Shown here: positions 5,052-52,697 of the stretch, in pieces
Position numbering within the stretch: position 1 is the first letter of the stretch
How the letters are laid out: every line of letters starts with the position of its first letter
Program-made: the position numbers and the translations under genes
Origin: Cycas panzhihuaensis
Lineage: Eukaryota; Plantae; Cycadophyta
Direction of reading: 5' to 3'
DNA length: 64,000 nucleotides
Assembly: GCA_023213395.1 (NCBI GenBank)
Contig: CM041465.1
Location: 216,573,741-216,637,740 of the forward strand
Notes under the pieces: model-generated
The model's input: the letters and a program-made list of their open reading frames with translations, nothing else
Told to the model about the DNA's origin: nothing
Databases searched by the model: none

Positions 5052-5063
5052 TGGTATCAGAGC
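5052..5063 (+). promoter_or_regulatory. Primer binding site (tRNA-iMet)
   Basis: Perfect TGGTATCAGAGC 3 nt after the LTR end (CA at 5047-5048). Confidence 0.9.
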
Positions 5064-6276
5064 AGGTTTTGAGAGGGAACCATCCTTGAGATGGCACCTC
5101 TCAAACCAAGGATGTGTGTATATTTTTCTAAGAATAGAAAGATATTGTGTATTCCATCATTTTAAAGGAGTATGGCAAACGACTGGATGGTTATGTTGAT
5201 CCCTCTACAAAGAGAGTTAGGGACATTAATAACAAGGTAATTGGTTCCCCTGCTATTATTACAAACATATAGTCAAATGTTCCTTACAAATAGGCAAATT
5301 GAGGCTATGAATTTTTATGCATGCTCTAGTTCTCGGTGGTTTTAAAACTCTGAAGCCTCCTCCTTGCCTCATGTGCTTTATTGCCATACCATAAATCTTA
5401 GATGGAATAGATAATAACAAGCAAGGTTGGATAGTATAGGCAAGGTAGCCTGCGACTCAGTACTGGACTATAATGGTGCCAAACCAGCTTTTCTTGAAGC
5501 TATGCTTGGAAAACTCCATGGCATACAAGGGGAGCTCTCGATGGTCCTTTATATCATAGAATCACTCTCAAATCCAAGGACTTTATCAAAAATCCCAAGA
5601 TTTAGCATCCAAAATATGAGCTTCACCTCCCAAAACAAATAGAAATCTTATATTGTAGCTTAAATTAGCCTAATATGGTGGCTCAAGAGGTTTTAGGGTT
5701 AGTTAGTTTGAGCAGTAAGAAGAAAAAGAGACTAGAAATGGATCCTATGAGTCTCTAGGTGCTGGTTTCCCATGGTCAGGCCTTACAAAGTCTTACATGC
5801 ATGATCCCTTATTATATTCTTCCCAAGTTGCCCCTGGTTCAACTCTTGCTTTCATGATATTTTGCTCAAGGGATCCTAGGTTCAAATCTTCCTTGACTGA
5901 ATACTATAGAGCCCTAGCTATTAAATCTTCATTTAGACCCCATCAGGGAATCTCTTCATCTCCCATCTTCCCTATAGCATGACCTCTCTCATGAATTAGA
6001 ACTTCGAGAGCTCGAGCTTTAAAGGTATACCGTGAGGAGTTGTAGAGGCAAAAAAGAAGGCATGCCAACTTTAAAGAGCAAAGGTTAAGAGGCCACTTGA
6101 GTTAGTTAGAGATTTTCTTTAGCTACATATTGATGAATAGATTGTAGACTCTGGCTATGGTTTAGGGTTTTTGTCGTGCTCCAGAGTTTGAAGTCTAGGG
6201 ATCGAGCATTATGGCAAATAACATACAGCCCCACGCGCAGTCTAATTTTGCTGACTAGATGTACTGAATGAACAAC

Positions 6277-6714
6277 ATAGTAAAAAAACTTCTAGACCTC
6301 AATAAACCCATAAATGTTCCTCCTCTAAATGCCACTATCATCACTTTCTATGGAATAAGATCTAAAGACAAGAGAGAAGCAACGGAGTAGATATTACGAG
6401 AATTAGAGAATAACCTAAATGCATGGCTACAAATGGTTAATATTCTATAGAATTCATAAAATCTAAATACCAAGTTCTTTGCACTTCAGGTTCTTGAAGG
6501 TACCATCAAATATTAGTGGAATGCTTTACTTACTGAACAATGAGATGCAATAAAAAACTACATATTAGACCTTATTGTTCATCTCTCAAGTAATAGAAGT
6601 TCCTTTTTTCATAAGAGACATCATGTCAATAAGCTCAATGTGATATTGATGTAGATGTTAAAGCATGAATGGCCAATCAAATAGCCCAGATTTATCCTTG
6701 ATCTTGTTTCAACT
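6277..6714 (+). pseudogene. XPO1: Processed 5' fragment of exportin-1 (CRM1)
   Basis: Translates (with stops and a frameshift) as KKLLDLNKPINV...NAWLQMVNIL*NS*NLNTKFFALQVLEGTIKY*WNAL.TEQ*DAIKNYI...VNKLNVIL..MLKHEWP..*PRFILDLVS, matching the plant XPO1 N-terminus; no introns. Confidence 0.9.
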
Positions 6715-7200
6715 AAATGATATTAATATAAATGCATTGAATAGGTTACATAAAATAGCTTTTGATATTGTGGAGGCATTTTTTGGGGTAAGTGCACATG
6801 CAGTTTATGGCCTCTTCAAGAGGTATTCATCTCATTGTAATTGTAATAACATCTACTTATATTTGTTTACTATGTTCTCATCCTTTCCCTAGTAATCTTA
6901 TTCCTTTGGATCAATTCAATTATTTTCTTGAAGAATTATTACTATTATTTCAATAGCCATATTTAACATATTTGTAGGGATAAAAATATGAGTATCCTCA
7001 TTAAAACCTTAATAGCAAATGTGTTTCTAATACTATAATTATTTCAGTTTATACCAAATATGATATAAAGATATTGAATTTGGAGGCACAAGTAATTTTC
7101 CCTTCTCATCACTATTTATAATGGTATTTTTTTCTTTATGTAAAAGTTGACATAATAGCACTTCCTTCACTATTGGATGTGTTAACATTTGTAGTAAAGT

Positions 7201-7358
7201 GGTGTTCTACTTAATGAGTTCACCTTTGCTTGCATTCTCCTTGCATGTTCTAATTTTGTATCTCTAGAACATGTAGTGATAGTACTACAGAGAATACTTA
7301 TAAAGTGTTTGACAAAGTATCCAAGCTAACTATAGTTTTAAGAACTATAATATTAGGA
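7201..7358 (+). pseudogene. PLS-class pentatricopeptide repeat gene fragments
   Basis: GVLLNEFTFACILLACSNFVSLEH then ENTYKVFDKVSKLTIV.RTIILG resemble PPR motifs G..PNEFTFASILSAC and DAYKVFDKM...IVSWT.MI.G. Confidence 0.7.
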
Positions 7359-7649
7359 TTGACTGCTAGTTCCTACACCTATTTTCACTTCAATTGGTAG
7401 TTGAGATTCATTCCAAGAATGTCAAGAACACTATGATGTTTTCCACCTTTATTGATGAATGGGTAACTGAGGAGAAGCAGGGTTGAATGATCTCCACATG
7501 GTTGCCTATACATCAATTTATCTCAATCTCAGTTATATGTTACAAGTACATGGTCTTATGAGGAGATTTTATAATAGTCATAATGTTGAGGATTAAACTA
7601 ATTTTAGTTCTTTCATATTTGGCCTGTGGGAAGAAGAATTTTGCAAAGA

Positions 7650-7797
7650 ATGGAAGATCAAGGGCTTAATAACTTTTTAGGGGCCAATGATATTTACCAC
7701 ATAGTGGTGTGAGAAGATCTATGTCATTTCATCATACATTGCTAAATTTTACAATATGATATCTAATATTCTATGCATCATTCTAGCTTTTATTGGT
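7650..7797 (+). pseudogene. 5' fragment of an alkaline ceramidase (ACER/aPHC family)
   Basis: MEDQGLNNF/(W)GPMIFTT*WCEKIYVISSYIAKFYNMISNILCIILAFIG matches the family start FWGP.TST..WCE.NY..SSYIAEFYNTISN; one 1-nt frameshift. Confidence 0.85.
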
Positions 7798-7968
7798 TGT
7801 ACCAAGTGTAACCAATGTCAAAATTAGGTTGTACCAGTTACAACCAGGTGTGACTAGAAGTTGAGTAAAGTATGACCAAGTACAACCGAGTGTGACCAAA
7901 GGTTATACCAAGCATGGTTAAGTATGACTAGAGGTTGTACCAAGCATGACCAAGTATGACCGAATGTA
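7798..7968. repeat. Degenerate short tandem repeat (~10-bp unit, GTGTGACCAA/GTACCAAG-like)
   Basis: Repeated TGTACCAAG / TATGACCAAG / TGTGACCAA motifs directly after the ceramidase fragment. Confidence 0.6.
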
Positions 7969-9030
7969 ATAAAAATAAATCTCAAGCAATATTTTGCATG
8001 AATGGCTTTTTTATACCTAATTATGATCACACAAAAAATGATATGAACCTATTGGCACTGGACTAAAGTAGCCAATTATAACGATTTAAACCCCCATATT
8101 TTATAGTTGTGAATGTAAACTTCTATAGTAAATAGTTAATTATTATTATATATAAGCTTTGTAGCTTAAAATCATTGATGTATTCTGGCCAAAGGAGTCA
8201 TTAATGATAGCATATTATGAATTATTTTAGCCATAGAGCCAATGATGATGATATTGACATAGGTTGCTAAACATTGTTAGCCAAGAAGTATAACTTATTC
8301 CCAAATATCTAACTTTACGATATCTGTCTAATTAGGTAGTTTGACATGCTCTCGAGATATGTGTTAAATAAATACCTACTTAGTGTTGATGAACCTAGAT
8401 AATCGATAGACACAATGGTCAGTTACCCACGTAATCCAGTGGGTGGTGATGTCTTTATAAACAAGAATGATAGTCAAAGAATAGAGGTCGTATTTGGTAT
8501 AGTTTTGTATTGTATAAAATTAAATATTATGGGGGGATGTTTGAATATAATGTTTAATTTTTAAAATGTCATAGATTTATTATTTAATATAAGGGATATT
8601 ACATTAAAATATTAATTATAATTGGGGTTAGTTGTAACTTAATGTTATAAGCTAAGATGTGTGGGTATACTATGCATACACAAATTATAACGTCATTATA
8701 ACATTGATCATATAAGGTGCCATATGTCATGTTGCATGAACAACTCATCATATTCTAAAAAATGGTTTTATATTCCTATATGTATGCATTTGATATTCAA
8801 TTTAATATCAATGAATGAATAGAGAATAGATTAGTACTTTGATTATTGTTCATTGTTGTTTTTTGAATATTGAGTGTGTGCATTGTTTATCTTTCATTTA
8901 GGTCATAAAAAAATGTATTTAAAATGGTAGCAACTCTATGCAATTGAGTAAGAAGTCAATTATGAAAATCAAACATCATTGATGACTAATAATGCATCGA
9001 ATAAATGTAATCATTATCCCTTAAGGATGG

Positions 9031-11583
9031 TGTTTCCCAGCTACTGGGAATGGACTCGAGATACATCGACGCAGGTTTGTTCAGGTATATTCTCTTACCC
9101 TTTTGCCCTGGTTTGATTGAGGTTATTTAGAGTAGGATTGCTTGGCATATACCCGCCTGTGCGCATTGCTTGTCTGCTTGCTCATAATGCATGTGCCTAA
9201 CGGCACGCCTTCAGCCTATGACGACTCACAGCGGGGGCATTCTTCAGCGAATGTTACACCCCGTATGGCGCACAGCCACCCATGATGTCTCCAAAGTTTC
9301 CCGGGATTGCTTCCGCCAGTTTACTTGCTCATGTTGCGACATGTCGTTTGCGTTGCCATCCTTTCTAAGTCTAACTCGATCCTTAGTTAGGACTTTTTGG
9401 GTTGTTTTGGGTACTTGCCCACTGCCTGGGCATTCCCCCAGCTGATTTAATTCATAATTAGTTTCTGTTTTTGCTTCAAAACCCCGATTCTCGCTTGTTT
9501 TTCTTTTTAAGTTTCAGTTAATCTGCAGAAACTAAGTGGTACTCACTGAGTTTGCAGCAGCATACGTAATTTTCCGTGGTACGAATCGCTTGAAATTTAA
9601 AGAGAACCACGCTACGCTTCCGCTTTTCGCAAACTGCCGCGTGGCTCGTTCGATTGAGGCGCTCGACATCCCCAACGCTCACCGCCGTGAACAGGGGATA
9701 AAGGGAATTTTCCTCCCCATTTCCAGGACTTTTTGCTCATTTTCCAAACTTTCAAGAGAATTTCCCAAGAGACTGCACACAGGAAAGCATACAGAAAACA
9801 CAACAAGTTCATGCACAGCAACTGAGGAGGGTGAACCAGGCTGCCACCAGTGGATTTTGCAGGGCTATTGCTGCCCCTTACTACTTTCCACAACCAGCTC
9901 TGTTCCTCTTGCAGCTGCTCAGAGATTCAAGGGACTTCTTTAACCAAGAAGCTGCCCCAAAGACTTACTCCACAGCTCCAACTTCACAAGGAGCCTCTTC
10001 CATCTACACTTCAGCAGGACATACTCATAATCAGCCTCCGTTTGACCTCCATTGTTGCTGTCCCTAGTGGCAGGAGGCATGCTTGATTTCTCCACACAAG
10101 GTACCCCTTAGTTTTGCTTGCAATTTCTTGTATTTTACTTGCTTTTTTCCTTCTTTTCACTTGTACTTCCTTCTCTTTTTTTTACTTGCAAACCTTTGGG
10201 CATACTTGCAATCTTTTTTCCATTTTTACTAGCAAGCATTCCACCTCTCCTTTCTCCATGCATTACCTCTTTTACCCCATAACAGAAAGTGACTATCATT
10301 AGCCATAGCTGCCCCGTAGTGCTATCTTGACCCAAATCCACTTTCCCGGTGTTTTCTTTGGAGTCCCTCATTTTCTCCAAGCCTTCTTTTACTCCTTCCT
10401 CAGCCAGCCAGAGTAAGGGAGCATACACGGGGATTTGAGGGAGGTAGGCGGGGTTCCGTCCCCCATTGCCGTCCTTCTCCCCAAGGGTTCCGTCCCTTGT
10501 CCTCTTCCCCTTACCATACACGCTGTCTCAAGGAACGGGTCGAAGGAGTTTAGGGGATTGTGTCAAGGTATCCAGGCCGGTTCGAAATAATCTGCATCCA
10601 CCTTGTTACCACCCGGTGTTTCTCTCCCGAGCCCTTTAGGTGTGTTCCGCTTTGTGTGTGTGTGTAGCAGTTGGTAGTGTAGGAGTATCTCGTGCACTCT
10701 TATTTCGTTTTTGCTACATTCTAACACATAGCTTAGTTCATTTAGTTGAGTTGAGTTCAGTTTGCAATACATATACATATATCTCCTTGTATATTTTGTA
10801 GCCTCTCTCCTGAGAGGAAGGTGCTTTTCGTGTTTTCTCGCAGGATCACGTTGGTAGAGGTGGTGCGTGGAGTGAACCCATTGCCGGTTAGCTCTCATAC
10901 GGTATTTTCTCTCCCTTAGTTTTGAGGTTCCTTTTTGTCCTTTCATTTCATTTGGTTTCGCATGCTCACGGGGAGGTAAGTGAACCCCCTTACCACCGTC
11001 CACTGGCGTCGCGTTCGTGGAGAAAGGAGAAAGAGGGAGTGGAGCTTCGCGATATCAACCGTGCTTCTACCTCAAATGCCGGATCCATGTATTCCTCTCA
11101 TTTCTTTCGTGTTTCCTTTTATATTATTCTTGTCTTTTTGCATCTGCCTGTGTAGATAAGGATAAAAGAACATAAAGGGAAAGGAAAAAATAATCGTTTC
11201 TTTGCATTTACTTTTCTGCACCAGTTTCTTGTTTTACGTAGCATAGTGTAGACACCCCCTTTTTGTGTCAAACTTGAGCTATCCCTTTTGCCGTTTGCTT
11301 GTGCGTTGGGTCAGTTGTCCCCCCTTGCCTTTGTTGCCTTCTCATTGCCTTGAGAAGCCGCAACGCGCAAGGCGCCTCCTCTCCTTCCCGGCCATCCGAA
11401 GGGTAGGAAGGCCTTGCTTTTGCACTGCTACCTGGAAGCAACCAGGCACCTTGCAGTCCCGAACCTGCGCTCCGGCACACGGATGTCCTGCGAGGTGAGA
11501 TCCTCACTGCCTAGCCTAGTTAGTGTAGTATTTTTATATCCCTTTGCTAGACGTAGGATCACCGCCCCGCAGAGAGCGTTTCA
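9031..11583 (+). repeat. 5' LTR of the Tat element (2553 bp)
   Basis: TGTTTCCCAGCTACT...GAGAGCGTTTCA; highly similar to 22999-25578. Confidence 0.96.
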
Positions 11584-11584
11584 C

Positions 11585-11602
11585 TGACGACCATACTGGG
11601 GA
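11585..11602 (+). promoter_or_regulatory. Primer binding site, tRNA-Arg type
   Basis: TGACGACCATACTGGGGA next to the LTR end resembles the TGGCGACTC..CTGGGGA PBS of Tat/Ogre elements. Confidence 0.75.
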
Positions 11603-11857
11603 CTGCCAGTTAGGGAGCTAACTTCGCTTCTCTCTTCCGTTGGTGTTCTTGCCTCTAGGTAGTTTCTTGTTCCGTGCTTTCGGTTGGACAACCCCCAACG
11701 CGCACACTTCGTTTTCCTTTTTCTCTTTTGTTGTTTCTTCTAACAACGCTCGCAAAGGCATTGCATGCGACGTTTCTCGCGTCGCTTGCGAGGTTTGCTA
11801 CCGTTGTTAGAAGGCCAATCGCCTCATTCCCTTCCGTCGTCGAATCCCGATTCGACA

Positions 11858-14824
11858 ATGGAAGGTTACCCATCCGATTGGGCTTATCACACCATGACTT
11901 CGGGAACTCAAGAGTTCCCTTCATCTGTCCCAGAATCCGCCCATGAGGGCGATGATTCCATCTACTATCCAGATGACCAATTCCATCCAACCGACTTTCG
12001 CCCTTCCGCCCATGCAGCGGAAGATTCAACTCCTCATGAGACTCACCATCCCACCGGTGAGCCTTACAAGGAGCGTCCTGAGGGATCCCCTACTTTTGAG
12101 GTCCCATCGACTTCGTATGGCTACGAGGATACCCCTCCCGCTGACGTAGTCGAGGTGCTTAGAGAGTATTTCCGAGCAGCTCGCCGTCAGCTGCATCCTA
12201 GATGGTTTGAAGAAGTGTTGCGCAACGTAGCATCTTCCTCATCCATCCCCGCGCCTTCTACAATGATTGACGCTCGTCACAAGACATCTGCCCCATGCCG
12301 TGTCTACTCCCGGCCCCAGTGACCAGCGTTGCCACTGTTTCTAGCCGAGGTCCTGCTTCTTCCGGACCCGTTCGTGGCATGTCCCTTCCCCAACTCGGGG
12401 TTAGCATGCCGTTTTCAAGCCAAACGCATGCGTCACCTTCAAACGTGGCACAAGCGTTCCCTAGTAGGCCTCGAGGTCCTACTAGCGCTGCCGCCGTCAA
12501 CTATGTAGGACCTACTCCTACATACGTTCCAAACTCTGCTGGTGGTCCTTCCCTTTACGTGCCCCCAGGTTACACGTCTCAACCGTGGGGGCAAGTTAAG
12601 GGGAACCATCTCCCTGTTTATGGGGTGGACCCGTTGCACCCATATGGGGTTGCGCCACCTATGGGTGGCCCCTATGGGTAAAACCCAGTTCCCCACCCTG
12701 CGTTTCCATCATCTAGTGCAACTCCCATTGTCACACATCGCAAGGGAGTATACCTCCTTTCCGAGCATTTACCCAACCCCTTTCCAACAAGGGGCGTTTC
12801 CCCAAGGAGGGATGGGTTTACCACCCCCATCCATTCCTTTGCCAGTCGTCGATCCATTAGCCCAAGCGAGGACACGTCCTTTCATGGACTACAGGTCGAC
12901 GCCATTATTTGTTAAGGCGCTAAGGACCAACTTGCCGCCTCACCCCCCTGAAGTTCCCAAATTCGACAGAACTTCGTCGCAAGACCCAACCGAGCATGTA
13001 CGCAGCTTTTCCATGGCGTGCATCGATTATTGGGCTTACGACCATATCTTGATGAAGCTCTTTCCGCGGTCCTTGCAGGGCGACGCCCTCAAGTGGTTTT
13101 ATCGCCTTCCCGCCCATTCGATCTCCTCATTCCAGCAATTGGTGGACGAGTTCGTCAACTATTTTGACGTAGCCCGTCCATTCGAAAGCGGAATGAAGGC
13201 GCTTCTGTCGCTTAAACAAGGTCACGACGAGATGAACCGTGACTTTGTGCGATGCTTTCATGATCTTCTTCACTCTACCAAGGCCACGTTGCCTGAAGAG
13301 TTGAAGCGAGATCTCTTCGTCAATGCACTTCGCCCCGAAGTGCATGTGGAAGTCCTTAAGATGGAGGCAACCACATGTGACTCCACGATTATGAGGTGCT
13401 TGGCGCTGGAGGCTATTGAGATCCAGGCTGGACTCAAGAAACCTCCTAGGCCCTCGCAACGTCACGAGGCGCCTCCCCCAGCGAATGAAACCAAACCTTC
13501 GCAGCTCGCTAGGTCCGCCTCCCATCCGACTGAGAGGACCCTGGACCCCCTTACTTCCGCTATTCACTCGTTCGAGCGAACGATGAAGGAGTTAAAACTC
13601 CAGCCTCCTTCGTCGCCGACCTCTCATAAACCTATCCAACAGGCTTCTCGTGCGATACCCCCCAAAGGGGGCAACACCTAACCTTCTCAAGCAAGGAGGA
13701 TCGATCCTCCCCTTGAGAAGAGGTGGTGTTCCATCCACGGGGAGTGTTTCCATGACGATGCGCATTGCCGGGCATAGCAGCCACGCGACGCCTCGCCACG
13801 CGATTCGTCCCCTAGGCGAGCATCGAGGCCTAACCTCGATCAGCCTATTCATAGAGACCCGTTCCCCAAGCATGGGGAACGTGGTCGCATTGTTTAGCAA
13901 AGGAACAATCAGAATCGGGATAGGTCTCCCGATCCTCGCCCTTCGCATGGTAGAGGGAAGGGTGTGTGAAGGTCACATTCCCCTTCGCGCTCCCCTGACC
14001 GCCGTGCTTCATCACCTTCGCGGTCCCATAACAAGGGAAAGAAGGTGATCCAAATGCTTGAGACCACTCCTCTTTACGCTTTAACCCGGTCTTAAGCCGC
14101 AAAGGAGGCAGCAGGTGCCTCTGTGTCCGTCTCGCAACCCGATCCCCCTCCGGAAGTTGTTCCTCCGGAGATCCCTGCACTTCCCAAGAGTATTCCTCGT
14201 CGCCTGTGTCGATTCGACTTTAGGAGGGCCCTTACCCAACCTACAGGGAGGGGTAAGCCTTTCTCCGTAGTCGAAGAGCTTCTTATTGTGGCTGCCGGGA
14301 TGTCCATCATGGACGTCTTGAGAAGTTACCCGGAGCAACGAGCGCTCCTCTTAGAAGCTCTTGGATCAAATGATGTGTCTGTTCATGCCTTGGGTACAAC
14401 CCCAAGTAGTGAGCCCGTTATCTCCTTCGATCCCAGAGATCTTCCCGCGTCTAGTGGAAGGGAACGCCAATGGAACTTCCCTTTCACTATTACGATAGAT
14501 ACTCTTGATTGCACGTTGCGAAGAACTGTCGTGGACAACGATTCTTCTGTCAATGCCATGCCTTTGCGCGTTATACAAGAGCTTGGCGTTTCCGCCTTGG
14601 AACCTGTTCCATGGCGTTGTCAGGGTTATGACGGTACCAAGAAGACTCCCTTAGGATCTGTCTCGATACCCCTTACCCTCGAGGACAAGACTGTCGTTAC
14701 CGACATCGTCGTCCTTGATATTGATGTCGATTACAACTTGCTCCTGGGTCGACCATGGCTTGACCAAATGGGAGCCGTGTGTTCTACCCGTTGGGGGCAA
14801 CTTAAATTTGTCCATAATGGATAA
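11858..14824 (+). pseudogene. gag: gag + aspartic protease (frameshifted)
   Basis: Pro-rich N-terminus; Retrotrans_gag-like LFPRSLQGDALKWFYRLP...SFQQLVDEF; CX2HX4HX4C knuckle WCSIHGECFHDDAHC at about 13725-13775; protease VVDNDSSVNAM...YNLLLGRPWL. Confidence 0.9.
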
Positions 14825-17800
14825 ATGAAGGTTGTCTCCCGCAAGCAGCCACTCGCCAAGCCAGCTAGGCCTTCCGCCCAGGCAAGCCATGGCCATGCGA
14901 AGGGAAACAAACGCCCTTCCGACCATGTCTCAGCTTGCTCCATTGGAATCCCCAATTCCTCTTACCGAGAAGAAGATCCCACACCTTCTTCTCCTGGTTT
15001 GACGCGCTTCACCCCCATTGGTGTCGGGAGCTATGGGTATCTCGCCGTGTTTGATGACGACGGGTCCCATAGCGAGGATGAGGATTGTCCTCACCCCGTT
15101 TCGTTTCTCCGCACTAGTGTGGGGCATCCTCCTAGTCCTAGGTTTCCTCCTATGACCCCTTTTATTGTAGAGCCTGGTCATTTTCATATGTCACATAACA
15201 TTGCGCATGTTGATCATCCTGTTCCTGGCTCTTCCGTCCCGTCACCTCACATAGGTGACGATGTCGAGAGTTCCCCTCTTGCTTTTTACGAGGGGCCTTT
15301 CCTCAACTCTCCTTCAGAGTCTCTTAGGGATGATGGGCAGTTTTCAGGCCATACCGGTCCTATCGCTCCCACGCTATCCCGCGCCTCGCCTATTCGAAGT
15401 CAGGTCATCCATGGGGTGGACTACTTCGAAGACGATGAGGCTTTACTGGAACACTTAGCTGGTTCCATGCCGAGTTTGCCTCCTGGTCACCACAAGCTTG
15501 GCCACCAGAAGGTCTTAGCGATTGGGTCCCCATTAGCCGACTCGATCCCCTCTTCCGCTTCCTCCCTTCCGATTGATCTCGCCCCCCTCCATTTCGAGGA
15601 GGGGAATGCCATGTGCATGGGGGCAACCCATGACATAGTCCTTGCCCCGGACAAGGTCATCAAAGTAGGAGCGAAATGCACTCCTGACGAAGTGAGGGAG
15701 TACGCCCTTCTGTTCCAAGAATTCCGTGATGTATTCGCATGGGATTACTTGGATATGAAAGGCATTGACCCCTCCATCGTCACGCATAACCTTACGACAT
15801 TTCCTAACGCTCACCCCGTGCATCAGAAGCAGCGTCCCCTTCACCCGAAGCTTTCAACTGCCGTTAAGATGGAAGTTGAGAAGCTTCTGGAAGCGGGACT
15901 TATTTCCTCCATCGATTACCCCAAGTGGGTATCGAATATCGTTCCCGTTGCTAAGAAGAACGGGACCATTCGCATTTGTGTCGATTTTCGCGACATAAAC
16001 AACGCTTGTCCTAAGGACAACTTTCCTCTTCCCTTCATTGATCAAATAATCGACCGTACGACTGGATTCGAGGTTATGTCCTTGATGGACGGCTTCTCTG
16101 GCTATAACCAGATTCAGATTTCTCCTGAAGACCGCCATAAGATGGCCTTCACTACACCATGGGGTACCTTTGCCTACAAGGCAATGCCCTTTGGTCTTAA
16201 AAATGCAGGGGCTACTTATCAAAGAGCCATGCATTTTATCTTTCACGACCCCATCAACAATACGATGGAGGTCTTCATGGACGACATGATGGGTCTTTCT
16301 CGTTCCAGAGCCCATCATCTTTTCGACTTGCGCGCCATCTTCGCAAGATGCCGCAAGTACCACGTTAGTTTGAACCCGCTGAAATGCGTGTTTGCCGTTA
16401 CTTCAGGCAAACTCCTCGGGTTCCTCGTGTCCTAGCAAGGAATCCAGATCGATCCGGAGAAAGTCAAGGCAATCCTTGACATGCCGCCACCTAGGACCCA
16501 ATGATAAATTAAGTCGTTTCTAGGCAGGCTTGGTTTCTTGAGGCATTTTTTGGCAGATTTTGCCATAAACGCCAAGCCTCTTACAAACCTATTGAAGAAA
16601 GGAGCCCCTTTTGTCTGGTCAGACAAGACCCAAAAGGCCTCAGAGGGGCTCAAGGAAGCTCTCGTTCGCCTGCTACCGGTGCCTCCTCGCCTGATAGGGC
16701 CCTTCATCCTATACACCTCGGTACCTAATCCCTGGGTGCAATGCTCTTACAGGAGGACGATTCGGGAACCGAGAGGGCTATTTATTTCATCAGCCACACT
16801 CTTGTTGCCGCTGAATTAAACTATCCTCCCGCCGAAAAGGAATGCCTCTCCTTGGTCCATGCGACCAAGAAATTTCGGCATTACTTGCTCGGTAATACAA
16901 CCAAGGTGATCGTCCAATCTGATCCCTTGCGTTACTTGCTTACACGTTTGGATTTAACAGGTAGGATGGCTCGTTGGGCCGTCCTGCTTCAAGAATTCGA
17001 CATGCAGGTTGTCAACAGGAAGTCGAAGAAGGGAATGATAGTAGCGGAACAGTTAGCCAATGCTACCATTCCCAACGCGAGCAGCGTTCCCGTTGATGAC
17101 TCTTTACCGGACGAGTCTATTATGACAGTCCAGGATGCTTCTCCTCACCCACTCGCCGACAGCGAGTGGTATGGCGACATTGTGCGATATCTGACTCAGC
17201 AAGAATATCGCCCTGAAGCCAGTAACAAAGTTAGGTTGTGTATCCGCGCCACCGCCAGGCAATACTTCCTCATAGATGAAGTGTTATACAAGAGATCTTT
17301 CGATGGGATCCTGCTTCGCTGCATCGCTCCTGACGAAGCGGACCAAATACTCTGCGAATGCCACCATGGCATTTGTGGGGGCCACTTTGGGGGCCAATCC
17401 ATGGCCCAAAGGATCCTCCGCATGGGCTATTACTGGCCATCCTTGTTCAAGGACGCCCACACTTGCGCACTTCGATGTCGGCGTTGTCAGGAGCACGCCA
17501 ACGTCTCTCACCTACCTTCCGAGGCGTTACACCCTATCGTGTCTCCGTGGCCCTTCTCCCAATGGGGTTTAGACCTCATTGGGGCTATATCACTGCCATC
17601 TTCCGCACAACATAAATATATCTTAACCGCTACTGAATACTTCACTAAATGGGCAGAGGCGATCTCCCTGTCCACTACCCCTGGCAAGACGATAGCCACC
17701 TTCGCTCACCAAAGATATTATCTATCGTTTCAGAATTCTAGACGTCCTAATTACGGATAATGGAACTTCCTTTTGTAATAAGGAAATGGACGAATTGTGC

Positions 17801-18412
17801 GAGAAATTCAAGATCTCGCATAAGACGTCATCCCCTTATTACCCCCAAGCAAACGGGCAAGTTGAATCTTTCAACAAAACGCTCGTTGGCATTTTGAAGA
17901 AAATCGTTGCCCAGTCTCAAAGAGACTGGCATATCCAGCTCCCTTCCGCTCTATGGGCTTATCGCACCTCCATCCGGACAGCTACCGGGATGACCCCATT
18001 CTCGTTAGTTTACAGAACCGAAGCAATACTCCCATTGGAAGTGGAGATCCCTTCTCTTCGGGTTTCCCTTCGAGGCCTCATTGACGAGGAGTCTATTCGC
18101 CAGGCTCGCCTCCTGGACCTTGAAGCCCTGGATGAGAAGCGCTTAGCGGCTTATCAAGCGAACCTCGCTTTGAAAGCCCGTTTGCAAAGGATACATGACA
18201 AACATCTTCATGTTCGTCCTTTGTGTCCCAGGGACCACGTCCTCAAATTGGAGTATCTTTACGATCACTTAGCCAAATTCGGGCCCAAGTGGGTAGGCCC
18301 CTTCGTCGTTCTCGAAAGCCTCGATAACGGTGCGTACAGGATCGCCACTTTGGACGGCTTGGAATTTGAGAAAGCGGTCAATGGAAAGTTCCTCAAGAAA
18401 TTTTACGCGTGA
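14825..18412 (+). pseudogene. pol: pol: reverse transcriptase, degenerate RNase H, integrase
   Basis: RICVDFRDINNACPKDNFPLP, MDGFSGYNQI, MPFGLKNAGATYQR, VFMDD; RH NY..AEKECL; INT H..ICGGH..C..CQ, WGLDLIG, ITDNG, PQANGQVESFNK, GPF; several stops and frameshifts. Confidence 0.95.
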
Positions 18413-19130
18413 CCTTTCCACTCTTTTCTTCCCCATGCTCCGAAATGAGCCTAAACTACCATTTTAAATTGTTTCCATTCTTCCCAATCACGGGTAGAAT
18501 GGCAATTTAAGATGGATTTTCGGTTGTTCTTCCGGTTCCTCCCACGGAACCTGCGTTCCCTAGTGCTCTCGGGAACCTTTGTCCTCATATTTTGGGCATT
18601 CCCCAAACTAGGACTACGCTGTGGAGTATCGTTACTCCCCTCTCGTGCTTGTTGTTTCCTTCGCATATTCTGCTATGTTCCCCTGTGGATGTGCATGTCG
18701 CCCTATTTTCTAACCTCACACCTCTCGATCACCTCTACTCACGGTGGATGTGTGTGCTCCTGTTAGACATATGGCCATACATGGAAGGAAACACGTGCAT
18801 GTGTATATTTATAAAATCTACATATTCAGATATTTATATACTTGCATATTTACATACAACATTTACAACATATTTACAACATTTGCAACATACAAAAAAC
18901 ATTCATTTACAAAAGTAAACCATGCATGCTATCTCTATCATATGTGATACATGCCATTTCATGCCAAAATGGGGTTACAACTACCCCATGTGTATATATA
19001 TATCAAAATGTCATAATACATCATGTGTATGAGAAGCCGGGATCCTTGCAAGGGGGGTACAATCATGTGAGCCTACATATGACCCCCTGGAGGCCCGTGC
19101 TTTCCCGTCAGACCTATACATGTGTGTCTC

Positions 19131-21067
19131 CTAGTCTACTGCTGCCGTCTGCACAGGAGTCCCATCTCCCAGTCTCGTGTGATCCTCTCCTGGGGACCAC
19201 ATCCCTGCGAGGCTCCTCCTGGGCCTCCGCGAGCTGCCTGCCTCGCTCTCCTCGTCCCGAGGCCGTCTTGGGGTCGTAGCCGCTATATGTATGTGTGTCT
19301 GGCTCCGGCTCGACCTCGAGACCATCTGCGCCACCAGCTGGTCGTAGCGGACCTAGATGCGATCCCTCTCACCTCAGAGTCCCTCCTCGATGGCTCTAAA
19401 CCTCTCCTCTGATGCCTTAAGGCGCTCTTCTAGGACTGTTAGGCGAGTGCTGCTCCCTGCATCTCCTCCTGGCCCGCTCTGTGTCTCCAAGGCCTGGATC
19501 CGTCCACGCAGCTCATCTCGCTCGCCCCTGGTCATGTCGAGCTCTCGCTGCACCGCCCTGTGATGCCATGTGCTCCAGGTCTCTGCAGCCGGATGTCTCG
19601 ACTCGCCAAGGGGCGAACGCCTGCATGTAGGCTCCTACTGATCTAGGCGCATCCTCCGCCTGGATGGGCGGTTGCCCCTTTGCGTAGACCTGAGGGAACA
19701 TCTCCCTCACCATGGCCTCGACCAGCCTCTGCACCTCTGCTACTCCTACCAAGGCAACATGCCATGTGTCAGTGTACATACTCACTGCATATCATCATAA
19801 AATGAAATCAAGATCTGTCTAGATGTCAAACGACTAAGGAAACGGTTAGGTCTCACCTGCCGTGGCCGCCGGATCCTCTGCTCGGGCGACATCCTCATCT
19901 CCTGGCCCTCCACTAACCACAGGTACCTCATCCTCAGGTACGTCTTCTGCCTCTGCCCTGTCTCTGGCAGGGACTGACTCGACCATCACCTCCCCGGATC
20001 TTCTCACGATCCGTAGCCTGCGCCCTCCGGGTCTCCGCCACCGCCTGCCTTAGGAGCTCGATGGGCCGTGATGGACCTGCCTCTCCTGCAGGTCGTGATG
20101 GGCCAGCCCCATCTCCCCCGTCATCGCTATCATTGCCCCCATCGTCATCGTCATCATCGTTGTCGTCGATGGGTGCTCCTGCTCCTCCTGCTCCGCTATC
20201 ACTCTCCCACCTCACTGCTCTGTAAGGCTCTGCTGTGTAATCTGTTAGAGTGAGGAGGTCGAGTGATGTTGCGTCGACTGACCGACGGACATGGGCCTAG
20301 TCCTCTGTCCCTCAGAGTCTGGTCTGCCACCTGTGGACCATTAGGGCCCACCTCGCTATGGGGAATGGCCCCTCACGGCCGCCACCGCCGCAAAGTGATA
20401 AAACCCAAGATCGCAAAGAACGGGCTGTATGAAAATCCTCCTCACCCCGATCTCCTGATAGTGTCTAGTTGGGCGACGAGGTTCGCCGCAACTAGGGTGG
20501 CCCAATCCATCCTCTCGCTGGCCTCGCACCGGTGCTCTGCGTCCACCCATCCTCCTGGAATCTCCCTGTAGTTTTGTTTCTGGGAAATCTGGAACTGAAT
20601 GCATAGTAGGATGAGTTTCCTCGCTCGAGGAATCTGCAACATGAGTACCGTTTGGAGGGGAGCTCCCCTTCGCTGCCACCTGTCTGCCCCCATGAGGAAC
20701 TGAGCCGCCTCCCTGTGTGCTGCCTCGGTGCTAAGTAGCGTCCTCAGTCTCACGGGTCTCCCTGTCGCTAACACCCCCAGGATCCGCCTGATATCCCCTG
20801 GGGTGATAGTAATGTCTTCTATCTAAGGCAAGTGAAATACATGCCTCCTCCTGTCCCAGTGCGATACTATGTCCACTAGGAGTCGCTGATCTGATGCGAA
20901 CTGGGGGGTCTTGTGGCCTTGTACAGCCGCATCTCTTCGTGGTCGCCTGCCTCCTCCTGGCCGCCATCTCTAGGTAACTCAGATGGGCATGCCGACGCTG
21001 CCATTATCCACCGCCAGAATCGCTCGCATTCATCAAAGTCAGTCAAAGTTAGTCTCCTAGCAGTCAT
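19131..21067 (-). pseudogene. Antisense Plant Mobile Domain (PMD, MAIN/MAIL-like) gene with acidic and coiled-coil C-terminal parts, one predicted intron
   Basis: Minus strand reads DQRLLVDIVSHWDRRRHVFHLP*IEDITITPGDIRRILGVLATGRPV (cf. PMD L..LVERW..ETHTFHLP.GEMTITL.DV..ILGLP..G.PV), then MDWATLVAANLVAQL, a poly-Asp stretch and ELRGRIQALE..LEERL; GT-AG intron 19856-19785 keeps the frame. Confidence 0.78.
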
Positions 21068-21690
21068 CTAGGCTCCTAACTGCTTGTCTGGTTGTCTTTT
21101 CTGGCTTTCAGGGGCTGTTTAGCCCCTTGTTTATTTTTTTCTTTTTTTCTAATTTTCTGTCTGCGTACCGCTCCAAATTTAGCGGTACCACTAAATTTGG
21201 AGTAGGTCCCGCGGGGATTGCTTCTCTCCAGCGATACCGCAGCCAAGATCGCGGTGTCGCGATCTTGGTCATGCAGATCACGCAAGAACCCCTGTAAAGG
21301 GGTTTTTTGCCCAGAAAATCAGAAATTTTTGTGGTGGACCCCCCGTGGGGCCCGCCGGGACCAAGGCTGCCTAATGCCCAGGTCCCCGCCTCTTTCTAGG
21401 TCCAATTCAGACTCCGAGAGGCCTCTAACTGCCCATGAGGGGCATAAAAAGCATTAAAAAATTAATTAAAAGCAATAAACTTTAAGCTTCGAAATGACAA
21501 GGGTTTCGTTAGATCCACTCACTCGGTTTGGCCTAACCGTCGCCATCTCGTCTCGGGGGTCGTGATGGCTATCTCCGCACTCGAATCGGCTGACTGCCTC
21601 TCGTGTGTCTCGAGTCGGGCTCCGTCAGAAGGAAGAGGCTCTGGTTTCGCACGAGAGCCGGTGAAAATGAATTCAATTTTCATTGTTTTT

Positions 21691-21700
21691 CCTTATATAG
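21691..21700 (-). promoter_or_regulatory. Candidate TATA box for the antisense gene
   Basis: CTATATAAGG on the minus strand, ~620 nt upstream of the ATG at 21067, next to a C-run. Confidence 0.4.
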
Positions 21701-22227
21701 GGGGGGGGCCCGATGGGCATTTCTTCCGTTTTTTGCTCCGTGATAGTCGTTGGGACCGTCTCGTTGCCCTGATAGCCTTTGCCTTCTGGCCCTGTCGTCC
21801 ATTGTGCTTCATGGACGCCCTCTCTGCCTCTCCTTGCGGGGGCATTTATGGCGCCTCATTTCTGCACTTTTGGCAGGGCCCCTTCGGCATCGTTTTACGC
21901 GCTACTCTCGTGCGTGCCCGAGTTTATACTCGTTTGGCTTGTTTCGTTGCCCGGGACTCATTTTTGCAGCCCTTTTTCACCCCTGGGGTGCCCAAAGGAA
22001 ATGCTCCCCCCGTCTGGGGGCATGTTTTGCTTTCCTAAGCAACCTTGGGCACCCCAGGGCATCCTTCCTCTGCCCACTCTCAGCCAGTGGCCGGATTACT
22101 TGCTTTCATTCTTGGGTAACCTCATTGCTAGGTCTTCCTACCCTTCTCGGCCCCTTCGCGCTTGCCATTCGAGTCTTTGTTTTGCTTTCATTACTATTTG
22201 TTTGCTGCCAGAGCTTAGTGTCCAACT

Positions 22228-22646
22228 ATGTCTCTCATTGTTTTCACCGATGGTGGAAGTCGCGGCAACCCCGGACCTTCCATGCAAGGTGATTCTTCGC
22301 AGCCCCTCCGGACACGATTTCTTGCATTCCGGGGTCTTTCTTCCCGAGGCTACCAATAATGAAGCCGAATACATGGCCGTTATTGAAGCCCTTACTGACG
22401 CTCTCCGTTTCCATCGCAGTTCCATTGTGTTATTTTACGATTCTCAGGTCGTGGTGTCCCATCTCATCCAGGTTTACCAGGTGTGATGCCCTCACCTGAG
22501 AACCCTCGCCGCACGCTGTGTCTCTTCTAGCTTGCTTCTCGTCAGTGGATATTCAGCATATCCCGAGGCACCTCAACGCTGAGGCTAACAGCCTCGTCCG
22601 CCTCATCCTTGAGCGTCGCCTCCCTCATCTTGATGACCGCCCCTGA
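22228..22646 (+). pseudogene. Stand-alone additional (archaeal-type) RNase H, aRH
   Basis: Own ATG: MSLIVFTDGGSRGNPGPS/..VILRSPSG...ATNNEAEYMAVIEAL...YDSQVVV...IQHIPRHLNAEANSL...RP*; RNase HI motifs DG.SRGNPG, TNN.AEY, DSQ, H.PR..N..A(D>N).L; two frameshifts and one stop. Confidence 0.9.
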
Positions 22647-22988
22647 GGCTTGCCCGCCACTGCGCCCAAGTCTCCGGTTGCTTTTGGTTAGATTACTTGC
22701 TATGTTTCGGATGCCCTCCTACTTGGCGTTGCGCTTCAAGAATGGGGCATCCCCTTTCTTCTTACTTCCTTCGGTTTCCGGTCGATGTTTAGACGACACG
22801 TAAGCAGCCCTTACGTTGTCCTCGTCTCCGTCTCTCTTGTCCATGCGTTCCGCCACGACACTCACCTACGCCCTTGGTCCACGTGCTGCTCTTTATTGCT
22901 TATATATATATATGCATGTGCTACTCATACTTTTGATTGTCAGCATTCGTCATCACATTATGCTTCCGAGCAGTGAGGCTCTGCTGCC

Positions 22989-22998
22989 AAGGGGGTAG
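22989..22998 (+). promoter_or_regulatory. Polypurine tract of the Tat element
   Basis: AAGGGGGTAG immediately before the 3' LTR TG. Confidence 0.85.
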
Positions 22999-25578
22999 TG
23001 TTTCCCAGCTACTAGGAATGGACTCGAGATACATCGACGCAGGTTTGTTCAGGTATATTCTCTTACCCTTTTGCCCTGGTTTGATTGAGGTTATTTACAG
23101 TAGGATTGCTTGGTATATACCCGCCTGTGCGCATTGCTTGTCTGCTTGCTCATAATGCATGTGCCTAACGGCACACCTTCAACCTATGACGACTCACAAT
23201 GGGCATTCTTCAAATAATGTTACACCGTATGGCGCCTGACCACCCATGATGTCTCCAAAATTTCCGGATTGCTTCCGCCATTTACTTGCTCATGTTGCGA
23301 CATGTCGCTTATGCGTTGCCATCCTTTCTAAGTCTAACTCGATCCTTAGTTAGGACTTTTGGGTTGTTTTGGGTACTTGCCCATTGCCCGCCATTCCCCA
23401 GTGATTTAATTCATAATTAGTTTCGCTTTTGCTTCAAAACCCGATTCTGCTTGTTTTTCTTTTTAGTTTCGAGGTTAATACCGCCAGAAACTAAGCAGAT
23501 CTGAAGTTTGCGCAGATCACAGAATTTGCCGCGGTACAACTGTTTGAAATTTAAAAAAAAGAGAACCACGCGACAGTTTCCGCTTTTTTCGCGAAACTGC
23601 CGTGTGACTTCGTTCGATTGGAGGCGCCCTGACATCCCCAACGTTCACCTGCTGTGAACAGGGGATAAAGGGAATTTTCGTCCCCATTTCCAGGACTTTT
23701 TGCTCATTTTCCAAACTTTCAAGAGAATTTCCCAAGAGACTGCACACAGGAAAACATACAGAAAACACAAGTTCATGCACAGCAACTGAGGAGGGTGAAC
23801 CAGGCTGCCACCAGTGGATTTTGCAGGGCCACATCGCCTTACTACTCTCCACAACCACTGCTCCTCTTGCACCGCCAGAGATTCAAGGGACTTCTTCAAC
23901 CAAGAAGCTGCCCCAAAGACTTACTCCACAGCTCCAACTTCACAATGAGCCTCTTCCATCTACACTTCAGCAGGACATACTCATAATCAGCCTCCGTTTG
24001 ACCTCCATTGCTGCTGTCCCTAGTGGCAGGAGGCATGCTTGACTTCTCCACACAAGGTACCCCTTAGTTTTGCTTGTAATTTCTTGTATTTTACTTACTT
24101 TTTTCTTTCTTTTCACTTGTACTTCCTTCTCTTTTTTTTACTTGCAAACCTTTGGGAATACTTGTAATCTTTTTTCCATTTTTACTAGCAAGCATTCCAC
24201 CTCTCCTTTCTCCCTGCATTACCTCTTTTACCCCATAACAGAAAGTGACTATCATTGGCCATACCGCCTGTAGTGCTATCTTGACCCAAATCCACTTTCC
24301 CGGTGTTTTCTTTGGAGTCCCTCATTTTCTCCAAGCCTTCTTTTACTCCTTCCTCAGTCAGCCAGAGTAAGGGAGCATACACGAGGATTTGAGGGAGGTA
24401 GGTGGGGTTCCGTCCCCCATTGCCGTCCTTCTCCCTAAGGGTTCCGTCCCTTGTCCTCTTCCCCTTACCATACACGTTGTCTCAAGGAACGGGTCGAAGG
24501 AGTTTAGGGGATTGTGTCAGGGTATCTAAGCCGGTTTGAGATAATCCGCATCCACCTTGTTACCACCCGGTGTTTCTCTCCAGAGCCCTTTGGAGACCTC
24601 CCATGGGTGAGTTAGCCATCCCGAGGCTATACTCAGTTCCGCTTTGTGTGTGTGTGTAGCAATTGGTAGTGTAGGAGTATCTCGTGCGCTCTTATTTCGT
24701 TTTTGCTACATTCTAACACATAGCTTAGTTCATTTAGTTGAGTTGATTTCAGTTTGCAATATATATACATATATCTCTTTGTATATTTTGTAGCCTCTCT
24801 CCCGAGAGGAAGGTGCTTTTCGTGTTTTCTCGCAGGATCACGTTGGTGGAGGTGGTGCGTGGAGCGAACCCATTGCTGGTTAGCTCTCATACAGTATTTT
24901 CTCTCCCTTAGTTTTGAGGTTCCTTTTTGTCCTTTCATTTCATTTGGTTTCGCATGCTCACGGGGAGGTAAGTGAACCCCCTTACCACCGTCAACTGGTG
25001 TCGCGTGCGTGGAGAAAGGAGAAAGAGGGAGCGGAGCTTCGCGAGATCAACCATGCTTCTACCTCAAACACTGGATCCAGGTATTCCTCTCGTTTCTTTC
25101 GTGTTTCCTTTTATATTATTCTTGTCTTTTTGCATCTGCCTGTGTAGATAAGGATAAAAGAACATAAAGGGAAAGGAAAAAATAATTGTTTCTTTGCATT
25201 TACTTTTCTGCACCAGTTTCTTGTTTTACGTAGCATAGTGTAGACACCCCCTTTTTGTGTCAAACCTGAGCTATCCCTTTTGCCGTTTGCTTGTGCGTTG
25301 GGTCAGTTGTCCCCCCTTGCCTTTGTTGCCTTCTCATTGCCTTGAGAAGCCGCAACGCGTGAGGCGCCTCCTCTCCTTCTCGGCCATCCGAAGGGTAGGA
25401 AGGCCTCGCTTTTGCACGACTACCTGGAAGCAACCAGGCACCTTGCAGTCCCGAACTCAAGGCCTCCCAAGACACGGATGTCCTACGAGGTGAGATCCTC
25501 ACTGCCTAGCCTAGTTAGTGTAGTGTTTTTATATCCCTTTGCTAGATGTAGGATCACCGCCCCGCAGAGAGCGTTTCA
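22999..25578 (+). repeat. 3' LTR of the Tat element (2580 bp)
   Basis: Direct repeat of 9031-11583 followed by TSD GATGG. Confidence 0.96.
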
Positions 25579-26505
25579 GATGGACATTTCACTATTTCAC
25601 TAGTAACCATATCAAGTTTCTAACAACCCAATACTATTGAATTATATAGATTTTTGTGGAAAGAAAAACTCATTGGTTTGATAGGCCTAAGTAGCACATA
25701 CAACTTTGTTGACATAAATTTCACCTTAAGAATAGATCTTTTCATTAACAAGACGAAGACCTTTCGTATAATAATGCATGAAGAATGACATATTATATAT
25801 AACGATGAAATTCCATACTAGAAACTCCAAATCAAAACCCTTATATATTTAACTACCTCTTATGCCTTCTCCATTGGCACTATGGATGTTGTATTAGGTG
25901 TTGAATGGTTAAAGTAGTTAGGCACCTATGGATGAAACCAGAAGGAAAATTTCATGTGCTTCTAATGGAACAAGAAGCTTTACTAATTCTTAGGAATTAC
26001 TATATTGAAATCTAAGATCATTCCAACCATGAAGATGGATAAGCTTCTTAGAAAAAGATATGCTAGTTTCATTACCCATCTATACTCTATAGAGGCCCAA
26101 ATTAGATGAGGAACAACTATAAGAGGACTAATAATAGGATCTTCAAAATCTCCTTCAACGGCATCGTAAAGTCTTCCAATTAATTCCTAGTGTGGCTCCA
26201 CCAAATTATGGAATGAAACTTGTTAACCAACTATATTTGTCTCCCTAAATAATTGTTAGTGACTGAGATCCAAAGCACATTGAAATCTGTTTGCACTATT
26301 TTATAGGAAATAAATAGTCTTAATGGGTATACCAAGTAGAAAATTATTATAATACTTCTTATTATGCCATAATAAAATGTCTCTATTCCTTACCCTATAT
26401 AAGTATCCTCTACTAGCTACTCATAAAATTTTCTAGTCTCTATCAAAGCCTTAAAGTAGAACAACTTTAGTAGTAGACCAATAATATCTTGTTATCCCTC
26501 AAAGA

Positions 26506-51737: not shown

Positions 51738-52697
51738 CCTTATACTTTTCAGATATGTTATACTTACATCAGATCTATAATATTTAGCTTAAATCTGTAA
51801 TATTTTTTAAAGTTTTCTTTAGATCTATTATGTTCTCTTTCATATCTAAATTTTTTCATTATATATTTGATGATATTTTTTAAAGTTTGATACAGATCTA
51901 TATTTTTTAGGCATATTCAGCCTTCTAAAAAAGCTATACAATAGATCTCATCTCTGCAAGTCTACAAATCAAGCTACATTACCAGGTTTTTTCAATTTCA
52001 TTCTCAGATTTAAGCATATAAATACATTTTATTTTTTTATGATATATATGCTGCAACATATTTGAAAAAGCTTTAGATACAAATATATATACATATATTT
52101 TTCTTTAATATATCTAAAATTTTCTAGTTCATTTGTGCTCCATTGAATTAACAAAAAAAACTCAATATTATTTTTATATTCTCTTTGTATAAATATATGA
52201 TTTTTTTAAATATTTATGAGAATAGAGGTATAAGTATAGCATTAATAGGGTCAATGTAAGCAAGAAATAACTAGAAAATAATACTGCACAAGTACACGTC
52301 AATTAACAAGTGGAAAACCCCTTCTGGGGAAGAAAAACCACCTCCTAAATCTAATTCATTAATAAAGAATTAAAACCATGATACAAAACCACCAACACAA
52401 AACCAACCTTTAAACAGGTATTTGGATAGCCCTTCTAGATTCCTGTAACCATCTCCATGAATCTAGGAGATAAATAAATACTACGAAGGTTCGTTAGAAT
52501 ATAGTTCTGTATTTCAACGACCATCCATAAATTAATAAAATAAACATAAATTTAAACATTAGAATCACTTAAATTATATATAAGACATGTGACTAAATAA
52601 TAACATTAAGAAACATAAAGCTTATATTATATCATCTAACATCCTAACATCCCCCTTTAATGCAAACTTTTGTACTAGAGAGAAAAGAAGAGCTTCA

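What the first reader, a model, noticed from the sequence alone, without database searches (positions are those of the whole stretch)
19131..21067. Antisense, spliced PMD (MAIN/MAIL-like) accessory gene inside the Tat element
Seen: a clear PMD-like motif hidden by stops/frameshifts and missed by the ORF track, followed by acidic and coiled-coil regions; about 600 aa when repaired. Known: PMD occurs as an extra ORF in some Ty3/gypsy elements, and Arabidopsis MAIN/MAIL1 PMD proteins affect TE silencing and gene expression. Inference: an element-encoded chromatin or anti-silencing factor with its own transcription unit.
Basis: partly seen in the sequence, partly recalled or inferred. Interest (0 to 1): 0.75.

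Follow-up and report, generated by a model that had tools for sequence, protein, structure and literature searches.

The report
Spliced antisense PMD gene in retrotransposon
A plant jumping gene carries, on its opposite strand, a broken copy of a known kind of extra gene (plant mobile domain plus a predicted coiled coil) that relatives likely splice, and whose protein is predicted to help the element resist host silencing.

Summary
The stretch lies antisense inside a 16,548-bp Ty3/gypsy element (9031-25578, 5-bp target duplication) with the order gag-PR-RT-RH-INT, antisense gene, solo aRH: the gymnosperm TatIII / 'post-integrase' layout. The PMD match is real but weak alone (Pfam E 2e-4, 20.9 bits, cut-off 34.9). 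It is secured through a homologue that passes the cut-off (85.7 bits; hhalign 98.9%). Family homologues (58-82% identity) are open where this copy has stops. The 111-nt GT-AG intron (19856-19746, minus strand) is skipped in four contigs of one probable RNA run; the row shown for three DNA runs reads 0. An acidic linker and a predicted coiled coil follow; about 600 codons in all. This copy is broken. An antisense PMD ORF in this lineage was published in 2015, and an anti-silencing role for transposon PMDs has been proposed before. Not found in my searches: the intron, a coiled coil on a second exon in this lineage, and the head-to-head placement with the solo aRH ORF. Function is inferred only: likely a VANC/MAIL-like anti-silencing factor acting in trans.

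The parts
9031..25578 (+). Full-length Tat (TatIII / post-integrase type) Ty3/gypsy LTR retrotransposon, 16,548 bp, flanked by target-site duplication GATGG (9026-9030, 25579-25583)
9031..11583 (+). 5' LTR (TG...CA), about 2.55 kb; followed by a PBS-like stretch whose primer tRNA was not identified
   Evidence: K2P to 3' LTR 0.065 overall, 0.046 in the cleaner 1,569 columns
12509..18412 (+). gag-PR-RT-RH-INT, broken into several ORF pieces; integrase ends in a stop at 18412; native RH lacks its first catalytic Asp (motif position recalled)
19131..19745 (-). PMD gene exon 2: short helical part, frame break near 19575, predicted coiled coil (about 19560-19320, two internal stops), Arg/Ser-rich tail, stop at 19133-19131
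   Evidence: no Pfam family at E<0.05 for 19131-19571
19746..19856 (-). 111-nt GT-AG intron, phase 1, T-rich, 5 in-frame stops
   Evidence: skipped in 4 contigs of run X20
19857..21067 (-). PMD gene exon 1 coding part: start uncertain (21067, 21033 or 21029); PMD domain about 20990-20200; acidic Gly/Pro-rich linker 20200-19857; four in-frame stops and frame breaks near 20930-20905, 20420-20375 and 19995
21068..22227 (.). About 1.16-kb spacer between the head-to-head PMD and aRH ORFs: TATA-like TATATA at 21694-21699 readable on both strands, 32-nt palindrome 21171-21202, candidate T-rich leader introns (minus 21522-21429; plus 22116-22211), all unverified
22228..22646 (+). Solo additional RNase H (aRH) ORF with its own ATG, in three frame pieces in this copy, 3.8 kb downstream of the integrase stop
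   Evidence: Pfam RVT_3 E=2.6e-5, 24.6 bits, cut-off 21.6; N-terminal piece RNase_H E=0.075
22999..25578 (+). 3' LTR, preceded by a short purine-rich tract

Best explanation
This is a broken copy of an antisense accessory gene (plant mobile domain, acidic linker, predicted coiled coil) inside a TatIII-type LTR retrotransposon; relatives likely splice it, and intact copies are predicted to make a nuclear anti-silencing protein. Shown: the domain, the host element, the intron's sequence and its removal in contigs of relatives from a probable RNA run. Inferred: a promoter in the spacer between PMD and aRH drives a minus-strand mRNA; the intron survives retrotransposition because the packaged genomic RNA is the opposite strand, where its splice sites are not read; the PMD would bind a short DNA motif or chromatin in the element's promoters, the coiled coil would oligomerise the protein, and the acidic linker would recruit host factors, keeping family copies free of Polycomb or DNA-methylation silencing in trans, as MAIL1/MAIN do for host genes and VANC does for VANDAL transposons. 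I put the identity and anatomy at about 0.9 and the anti-silencing function at about 0.5.
For: Element anatomy matches TatIII: 5-bp TSD, 16.5 kb within 12.7-17.3 kb, aRH after INT. PMD secured via P0008. Homologues P0001, P0013 and P0002 at 82, 65 and 72% identity are open across this copy's core stops. All 30 bins of 18400-23100 are covered in three DNA runs by 70-78 thousand contigs each, so the region is part of a repeat family. Splice joints. ESM Atlas neighbours of the core piece include a cluster with DUF1985 on 13% of members (score 0.91) and a PMD cluster (54% of members, 0.89), leads only; DUF1985 is the VANC domain reported as structurally similar to MAIL1 PMD. MAIL1/MAIN/MAIL2 sit at DNA motifs and oppose H3K27me3. 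The antisense gene of maize Grande is nuclear and has its own upstream promoter.
Against: No functional test, no DNA-binding or localisation data. Both structure models were poor (pLDDT 53 and 35), so the fold was not confirmed. The direct Pfam score is below cut-off. X20 is only guessed to be RNA, is one run of one study, and no silent-stretch control was laid; it also holds unspliced contigs across the intron (depth about 92-98 against about 11 per spliced row); 41 joint rows were hidden, so an intron-less DNA subfamily is not fully excluded. No protein homologue was found for the linker, exon 2 start or a full-length family member, so the C-terminal half rests on composition, heptads and splice phase. 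No clustered short motif of the VANC-target kind stood out in the repeat scans of the non-coding parts. Only 18% of 39 TatIII elements had an antisense 3' ORF of 250 codons or more. dN/dS could not be computed.
Confidence: 0.55

Rival explanations
1. The protein is a self-limiting regulator: it represses or tunes the element's own LTR (like the antisense gene of HTLV-1, recalled), or helps host silencing, rather than opposing it.
For: main/mail1 mutants lose transposon silencing (PMC5418596); antisense retroviral genes are cited as the model for such ORFs.
Against: The mutant effect on transposons is reported as indirect, through loss of MORC1 expression; the direct action of PMD-C proteins is to keep targets active. 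VANC, with a similar domain, is anti-silencing.
Confidence: 0.2
2. The protein serves the replication cycle (particle chaperone, nuclear import or integration-site tethering to chromatin), not transcription.
For: Roles in import and an Env-like role are discussed for these ORFs; the coiled coil could scaffold a complex; this lineage has no chromodomain hit after INT (one search shows only a weak SH3-like hit).
Against: All characterised PMD and VANC-like proteins in the papers read act on chromatin or transcription. Transmembrane segments and particle binding were not tested here.
Confidence: 0.15
3. The antisense RNA, not the protein, matters (double-stranded RNA and small-RNA control), and the PMD frame is a relic in this whole family.
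For: All close homologues found are short fragments of 44-163 residues from single contigs; no full-length close member was found; spliced non-coding antisense transcripts occur in Copia elements.
Against: Homologues at 58-82% identity keep the same frame; intron removal keeps the frame between exons; a 456-aa PMD protein with a C-terminal helix exists among distant relatives.
Confidence: 0.07
4. The PMD stretch is a separate insertion (MULE piece or captured host gene) private to this copy.
For: PMD also occurs in MULEs and host genes; no single contig listed bridges pol, PMD and aRH.
Against: Continuous repeat-level coverage in three DNA runs; no terminal inverted repeats around it; GC and CpG like the rest of the element, unlike the flank (CpG o/e 0.67-0.68 against 0.20); the arrangement is published for the lineage.
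Confidence: 0.03

Closest known systems
Tat lineage III / TatIII / structure #3 'post-integrase' Ty3/gypsy elements of gymnosperms (PMC4408406, PMC6317226, PMC10508981, PMC13468544)
   Same: aRH downstream of INT, in a separate ORF per the 2023 and 2026 papers; antisense 3' extra ORF with PMD; 5-bp TSD; size in range; native RH degenerate.
   Different: The 2015 text gives lineage III a PMD-only extra ORF and puts aRH at the end of Pol. Here a predicted coiled coil follows on a second exon, an intron is present, and the PMD gene lies between INT and the solo aRH, head to head with it. The papers' figures were not visible to me, so the order may be drawn there.
PMD-coiled-coil extra ORFs of Ogre (Tat IV and V); PMD-A clades (PMC4408406, PMC5418596)
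   Same: PMD followed by a coiled coil; antisense 3' position as in lineage V.
   Different: Ogre has aRH between RH and INT and is angiosperm; splicing of the extra ORF was not found in the passages read.
Arabidopsis MAIN, MAIL1, MAIL2 (PMD-C) and VANDAL VANC (DUF1985)
   Same: Same Pfam domain as MAIN/MAIL; VANC has a similar domain plus a predicted dimerising coiled coil and is an element-borne anti-silencing factor.
   Different: Those are host genes or DNA-transposon genes of eudicots; the domain here is far diverged (below Pfam cut-off) and its clade, partners and target motif are untested.
Antisense accessory genes of Retand/Grande (GENE23, TRP28)
   Same: Antisense gene between pol and the 3' LTR with its own promoter.
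   Different: Those carry Transposase_28, not PMD.

Membership tests
TatIII / structure #3 Ty3/gypsy | Ty3/gypsy domain order gag-PR-RT-RH-INT between LTRs | tested here: met
TatIII / structure #3 Ty3/gypsy | aRH downstream of INT | tested here: met
   RVT_3 above cut-off at about 22290-22500, N-terminal motif from 22228
TatIII / structure #3 Ty3/gypsy | 5-bp TSD and size 12.7-17.3 kb | tested here: met
   GATGG, 16,548 bp against the supplement row
TatIII / structure #3 Ty3/gypsy | Antisense 3' extra ORF with PMD | tested here: met
   described
TatIII / structure #3 Ty3/gypsy | RT-RH-INT phylogeny within TatIII (Tat H/I) | not testable with these tools
   Reference domain file of PMC6317226 too large to read; no plant element collection on hand
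TatIII / structure #3 Ty3/gypsy | PBS for tRNA-Arg or tRNA-His | not tested
   PBS-like stretch seen after the 5' LTR; no host tRNA set to pair it with
TatIII / structure #3 Ty3/gypsy | Gymnosperm host | tested here: inconclusive
   The only species-named homologue is a Ginkgo gene model at 31% identity; the host itself is not given
PMD family (PF10536) | Score above the Pfam gathering cut-off (34.9 bits) | tested here: inconclusive
   Single-frame piece 20.9 bits and close fragments 20.5-23.8 bits; only part of the domain lies in one frame; linked to P0008 at 85.7 bits by phmmer and hhalign
PMD family (PF10536) | PMD fold | tested here: inconclusive
   Models of low confidence; no library of predicted cellular structures on hand
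MAIN/MAIL (PMD-C clade) | Placement in PMD-C rather than retrotransposon PMD-A | not testable with these tools
   No reference PMD-A, B or C sequences were returned by the searches; the literature puts Gypsy PMDs in PMD-A
MAIN/MAIL (PMD-C clade) | Host gene outside a transposon | tested here: not met
   Lies inside an LTR element with TSD
VANC-type anti-silencing factors | DUF1985/VANC domain | tested here: inconclusive
   No Pfam DUF1985 hit; an Atlas cluster with DUF1985 on 13% of members scores 0.91
VANC-type anti-silencing factors | Binds element motifs and lifts silencing in trans | not testable with these tools
   Needs bench work

The most novel reading that the evidence does not exclude
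The spacer between the head-to-head PMD and solo aRH ORFs is a two-way internal promoter. It makes a spliced minus-strand mRNA for a VANC-like anti-silencing protein and a plus-strand mRNA for the catalytic RNase H, so this lineage supplies both accessory proteins in trans from one module outside gag-pol. That would answer the stated open question of how aRH works from a separate ORF, give the first LTR-retrotransposon anti-silencing protein of the PMD kind, and date the PMD-coiled-coil architecture to before the angiosperm Ogre elements, hidden in gymnosperms by an intron.
Probability: 0.25. Interest if true: 0.7.

Novelty: new variant of a known kind. Interest (0 to 1): 0.4.

Why it matters
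The function of retrotransposon PMD genes, and how a stand-alone aRH is expressed, are both called open in the papers read. This locus gives a concrete gene model (two exons, splice sites seen in relatives, a short shared spacer) in a high-copy family, which makes both questions testable with stranded long reads and a reporter assay. It also suggests why ORF-based surveys undercount these genes and report PMD without the coiled coil: an intron with stops splits them. The gene class itself is known and this copy is broken, which caps the interest.

Tried and rejected
No whole genome is held for this window, so no family copies and no dN/dS. Word-index protein searches: no long relative of the PMD piece, 3 fragments at near length, none for the linker/exon 2 start. 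No PMD-related loci in viral or metagenome contigs; an RT scan gave 8 distant loci, the closest four under 2.2 kb and too short to show the layout, and none in viral contigs. Structure: pLDDT 53 and 35; Foldseek no match at E<=0.001; VIA best Z 4.9 on a 40-residue helical piece; no PDB sequence relative of P0008 below E 0.5: uninformative, not evidence against. No RNA holder was listed on record; X20 is a guess. Summed contig depth in X20 is higher over PMD and aRH (mostly 300-1900) than over the integrase end (10-118), but the tool says depth cannot rank genes, so I do not count it. Joints 22153-22228 (depth 694) and 21386-21637 were considered as introns and set aside: neither fits GT-AG within 3 nt, and DNA copies also diverge near 22152-22228. 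Splicing of aRH onto the integrase end: no such joint among the rows listed (28 rows hidden), and family contigs also show a stop after the integrase. A second Atlas look-up did not complete. Earlier findings of the scan: none. One exon-2 frame printed was off by one base; one search gives the right frame.

Full report
Setting. The finding sits in a GC-rich block bounded by two repeats of about 2.55 kb. These are LTRs at 9031-11583 and 22999-25578, TG...CA, with the target duplication GATGG on both sides. Pfam finds gag, protease, RT, RNase H and integrase in Ty3/gypsy order on the plus strand, 12509-18412, in several broken pieces. A second, cellular-type RNase H (RVT_3, 24.6 bits, cut-off 21.6) lies 3.8 kb after the integrase stop with its own ATG at 22228. 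The integrase ends in a stop at 18412. LTR distance is K2P 0.065 overall and 0.046 in the last 1,569 columns; the first 1,000 columns hold 22 of 26 gap runs and many transversions, which looks like local sequence error, so some frame breaks in this copy may be assembly errors. With a recalled conifer rate of about 2.2e-9 per site per year the insertion would be roughly 10-15 million years old; the host and its rate are not known.

The domain. Of the three minus frames over 18919-21800, read with X at stops, one hits PMD (E=7.7e-4; 2.3e-4 and 20.9 bits for the trimmed piece; cut-off 34.9). A full HMMER scan of 1.84 billion proteins gave 9 hits at E<=0.001: seven close fragments from Logan contigs (58-81% identity), P0008 (456 aa, 28%) and a Ginkgo gene model (31%). 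P0008 and its cluster mate P0010 pass the PMD cut-off (85.7 and 87.2 bits), and the profile of close fragments aligns to P0008 with probability 98.9 over 204 columns. P0001 (82%), P0013 (65%) and P0002 (72%) run open through the core stops of this copy. The end of the domain continues in the next frame to about 20200 (shuffle p=0.004). Then come two acidic, Gly/Pro-rich stretches (27 and 30% D+E) and, after the intron, a heptad-patterned region (0 of 300 shuffles reach its score on my own simple measure). Total 597-609 codons, six internal stops, at least four zones of frame change. No homologue was found for the C-terminal half.

Splicing. The intron 19856-19746 has GT-AG ends on the minus strand, 35% T against 13-17% in the exons, and 5 in-frame stops; removing it keeps the frame. 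Run X20 (RNA by the tool's guess; 49 million letters of contigs; same species label as the best DNA holders) shows a joint skipping 111 nt in 2 contigs, with 0 in three DNA runs for that row (about 46-47% of each DNA run read; 41 rows hidden). At lower stringency three rows (2+1+1 contigs) appear. Of 15 listed joints I dropped two 'goes back' rows; of the other 13, only these three fit a canonical intron, and all three give 19746-19856; a random 111-nt skip fits in 168 of 4400 places. The orientation of the sites fixes the transcript as antisense to gag-pol. Against: one run only, no silent control, unspliced contigs also present, and the contigs come from relatives, mostly 80-95% alike, not from this copy.

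Family. All 30 bins of 18400-23100 are covered in three DNA runs by 70-78 thousand short contigs each, so PMD and aRH regions are repeat-family sequence; family contigs differ from this copy by small indels at several of its frame breaks. No listed contig bridges the whole module.

Mechanism. Shown: domain, element, intron. Inferred: an internal promoter in the 1.16-kb spacer (TATA-like TATATA at 21694-21699, readable on both strands; palindrome 21171-21202) makes the minus-strand mRNA; the intron persists because the replicating RNA is the other strand. For the protein I commit to an anti-silencing role in trans: PMD-C proteins occupy DNA motifs and oppose Polycomb, their domain resembles the VANC DUF1985 domain, and VANC21 is predicted to dimerise by a coiled coil. 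The Atlas puts a cluster with DUF1985 on 13% of members and a PMD cluster near the core piece (a lead only). Structure prediction failed to test the fold.

What is known. PMC4408406 (sections 5 and 6, passages, supplement search; figures not seen) describes gymnosperm lineage III with aRH after INT and an antisense 3' PMD ORF, and says the coiled coil is added in lineages IV and V. PMC6317226 (passages, one supplement row; Additional files 1 and 3 unreadable and may bear on ORF order) gives TatIII 39 elements, 5-bp TSD, 12.7-17.3 kb, antisense ORF in 18%. PMC10508981 (whole text) places this aRH in a separate ORF in conifers, cycad and Ginkgo and asks how it can function from there; PMC13468544 (passages) calls it 'post-integrase' and notes the conflicting reports. 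PMC5418596 (passages) defines PMD-A to C and speculates on anti-silencing by MULE PMDs. bioRxiv 10.1101/2024.09.27.615353 (abstract, Discussion) and 10.1101/2024.04.02.587720 (passages) give the VANC link. PMC7264820 (main text) reviews antisense ORFs and asks for a look at spliced antisense transcripts. PMC9289625 and PMC11963269: passages. Six searches showed no report of an intron in a TatIII PMD gene or of the head-to-head PMD/aRH layout; Steinbauerova 2011 was not read, and bioRxiv supplements were closed.

Verdict. Real, correctly described, and mostly a known arrangement. The added details are the intron with read support, the coiled-coil exon in this lineage and the shared spacer with aRH. 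New variant of a known kind; interest 0.4.

Noticed in passing
window 22228-22646: The solo aRH ORF is preceded by a T-rich stretch with plus-strand donor and acceptor candidates (22116-22211); X20 has a strong but non-canonical joint in this zone. A leader intron of an aRH mRNA is possible.
   Followed up: partly
P0010 (with P0011, P0012): P0010 joins a PMD-plus-helix protein to an N-terminal 100 residues that P0011 and P0012 share without the PMD part; that part looks like the start of a host ALKBH8-type gene (recalled), suggesting an element exon spliced into a host transcript.
   Followed up: no
window 18436-18518: Family contigs loop back by 83 nt just after the integrase stop, so other copies carry a tandem array here; this copy has a single unit.
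   Followed up: no
window 52211-59721: An older Ty1/copia element on the minus strand: direct repeat at 87% identity, RVT_2 and copia gag hits.
   Followed up: partly
window 4689-8873: A pair of direct repeats (84-88%) about 3.85 kb apart just left of the Tat element, perhaps the LTRs of an older decayed element.
   Followed up: no
window 9031-10030 and 22999-24000: The first kilobase of the LTR pair holds 22 of 26 gap runs, a sign of local assembly error or faster decay.
   Followed up: partly
window 11744-12322: A 192-codon open frame upstream of the gag capsid piece with no Pfam hit; may be the broken N-terminus of gag.
   Followed up: no
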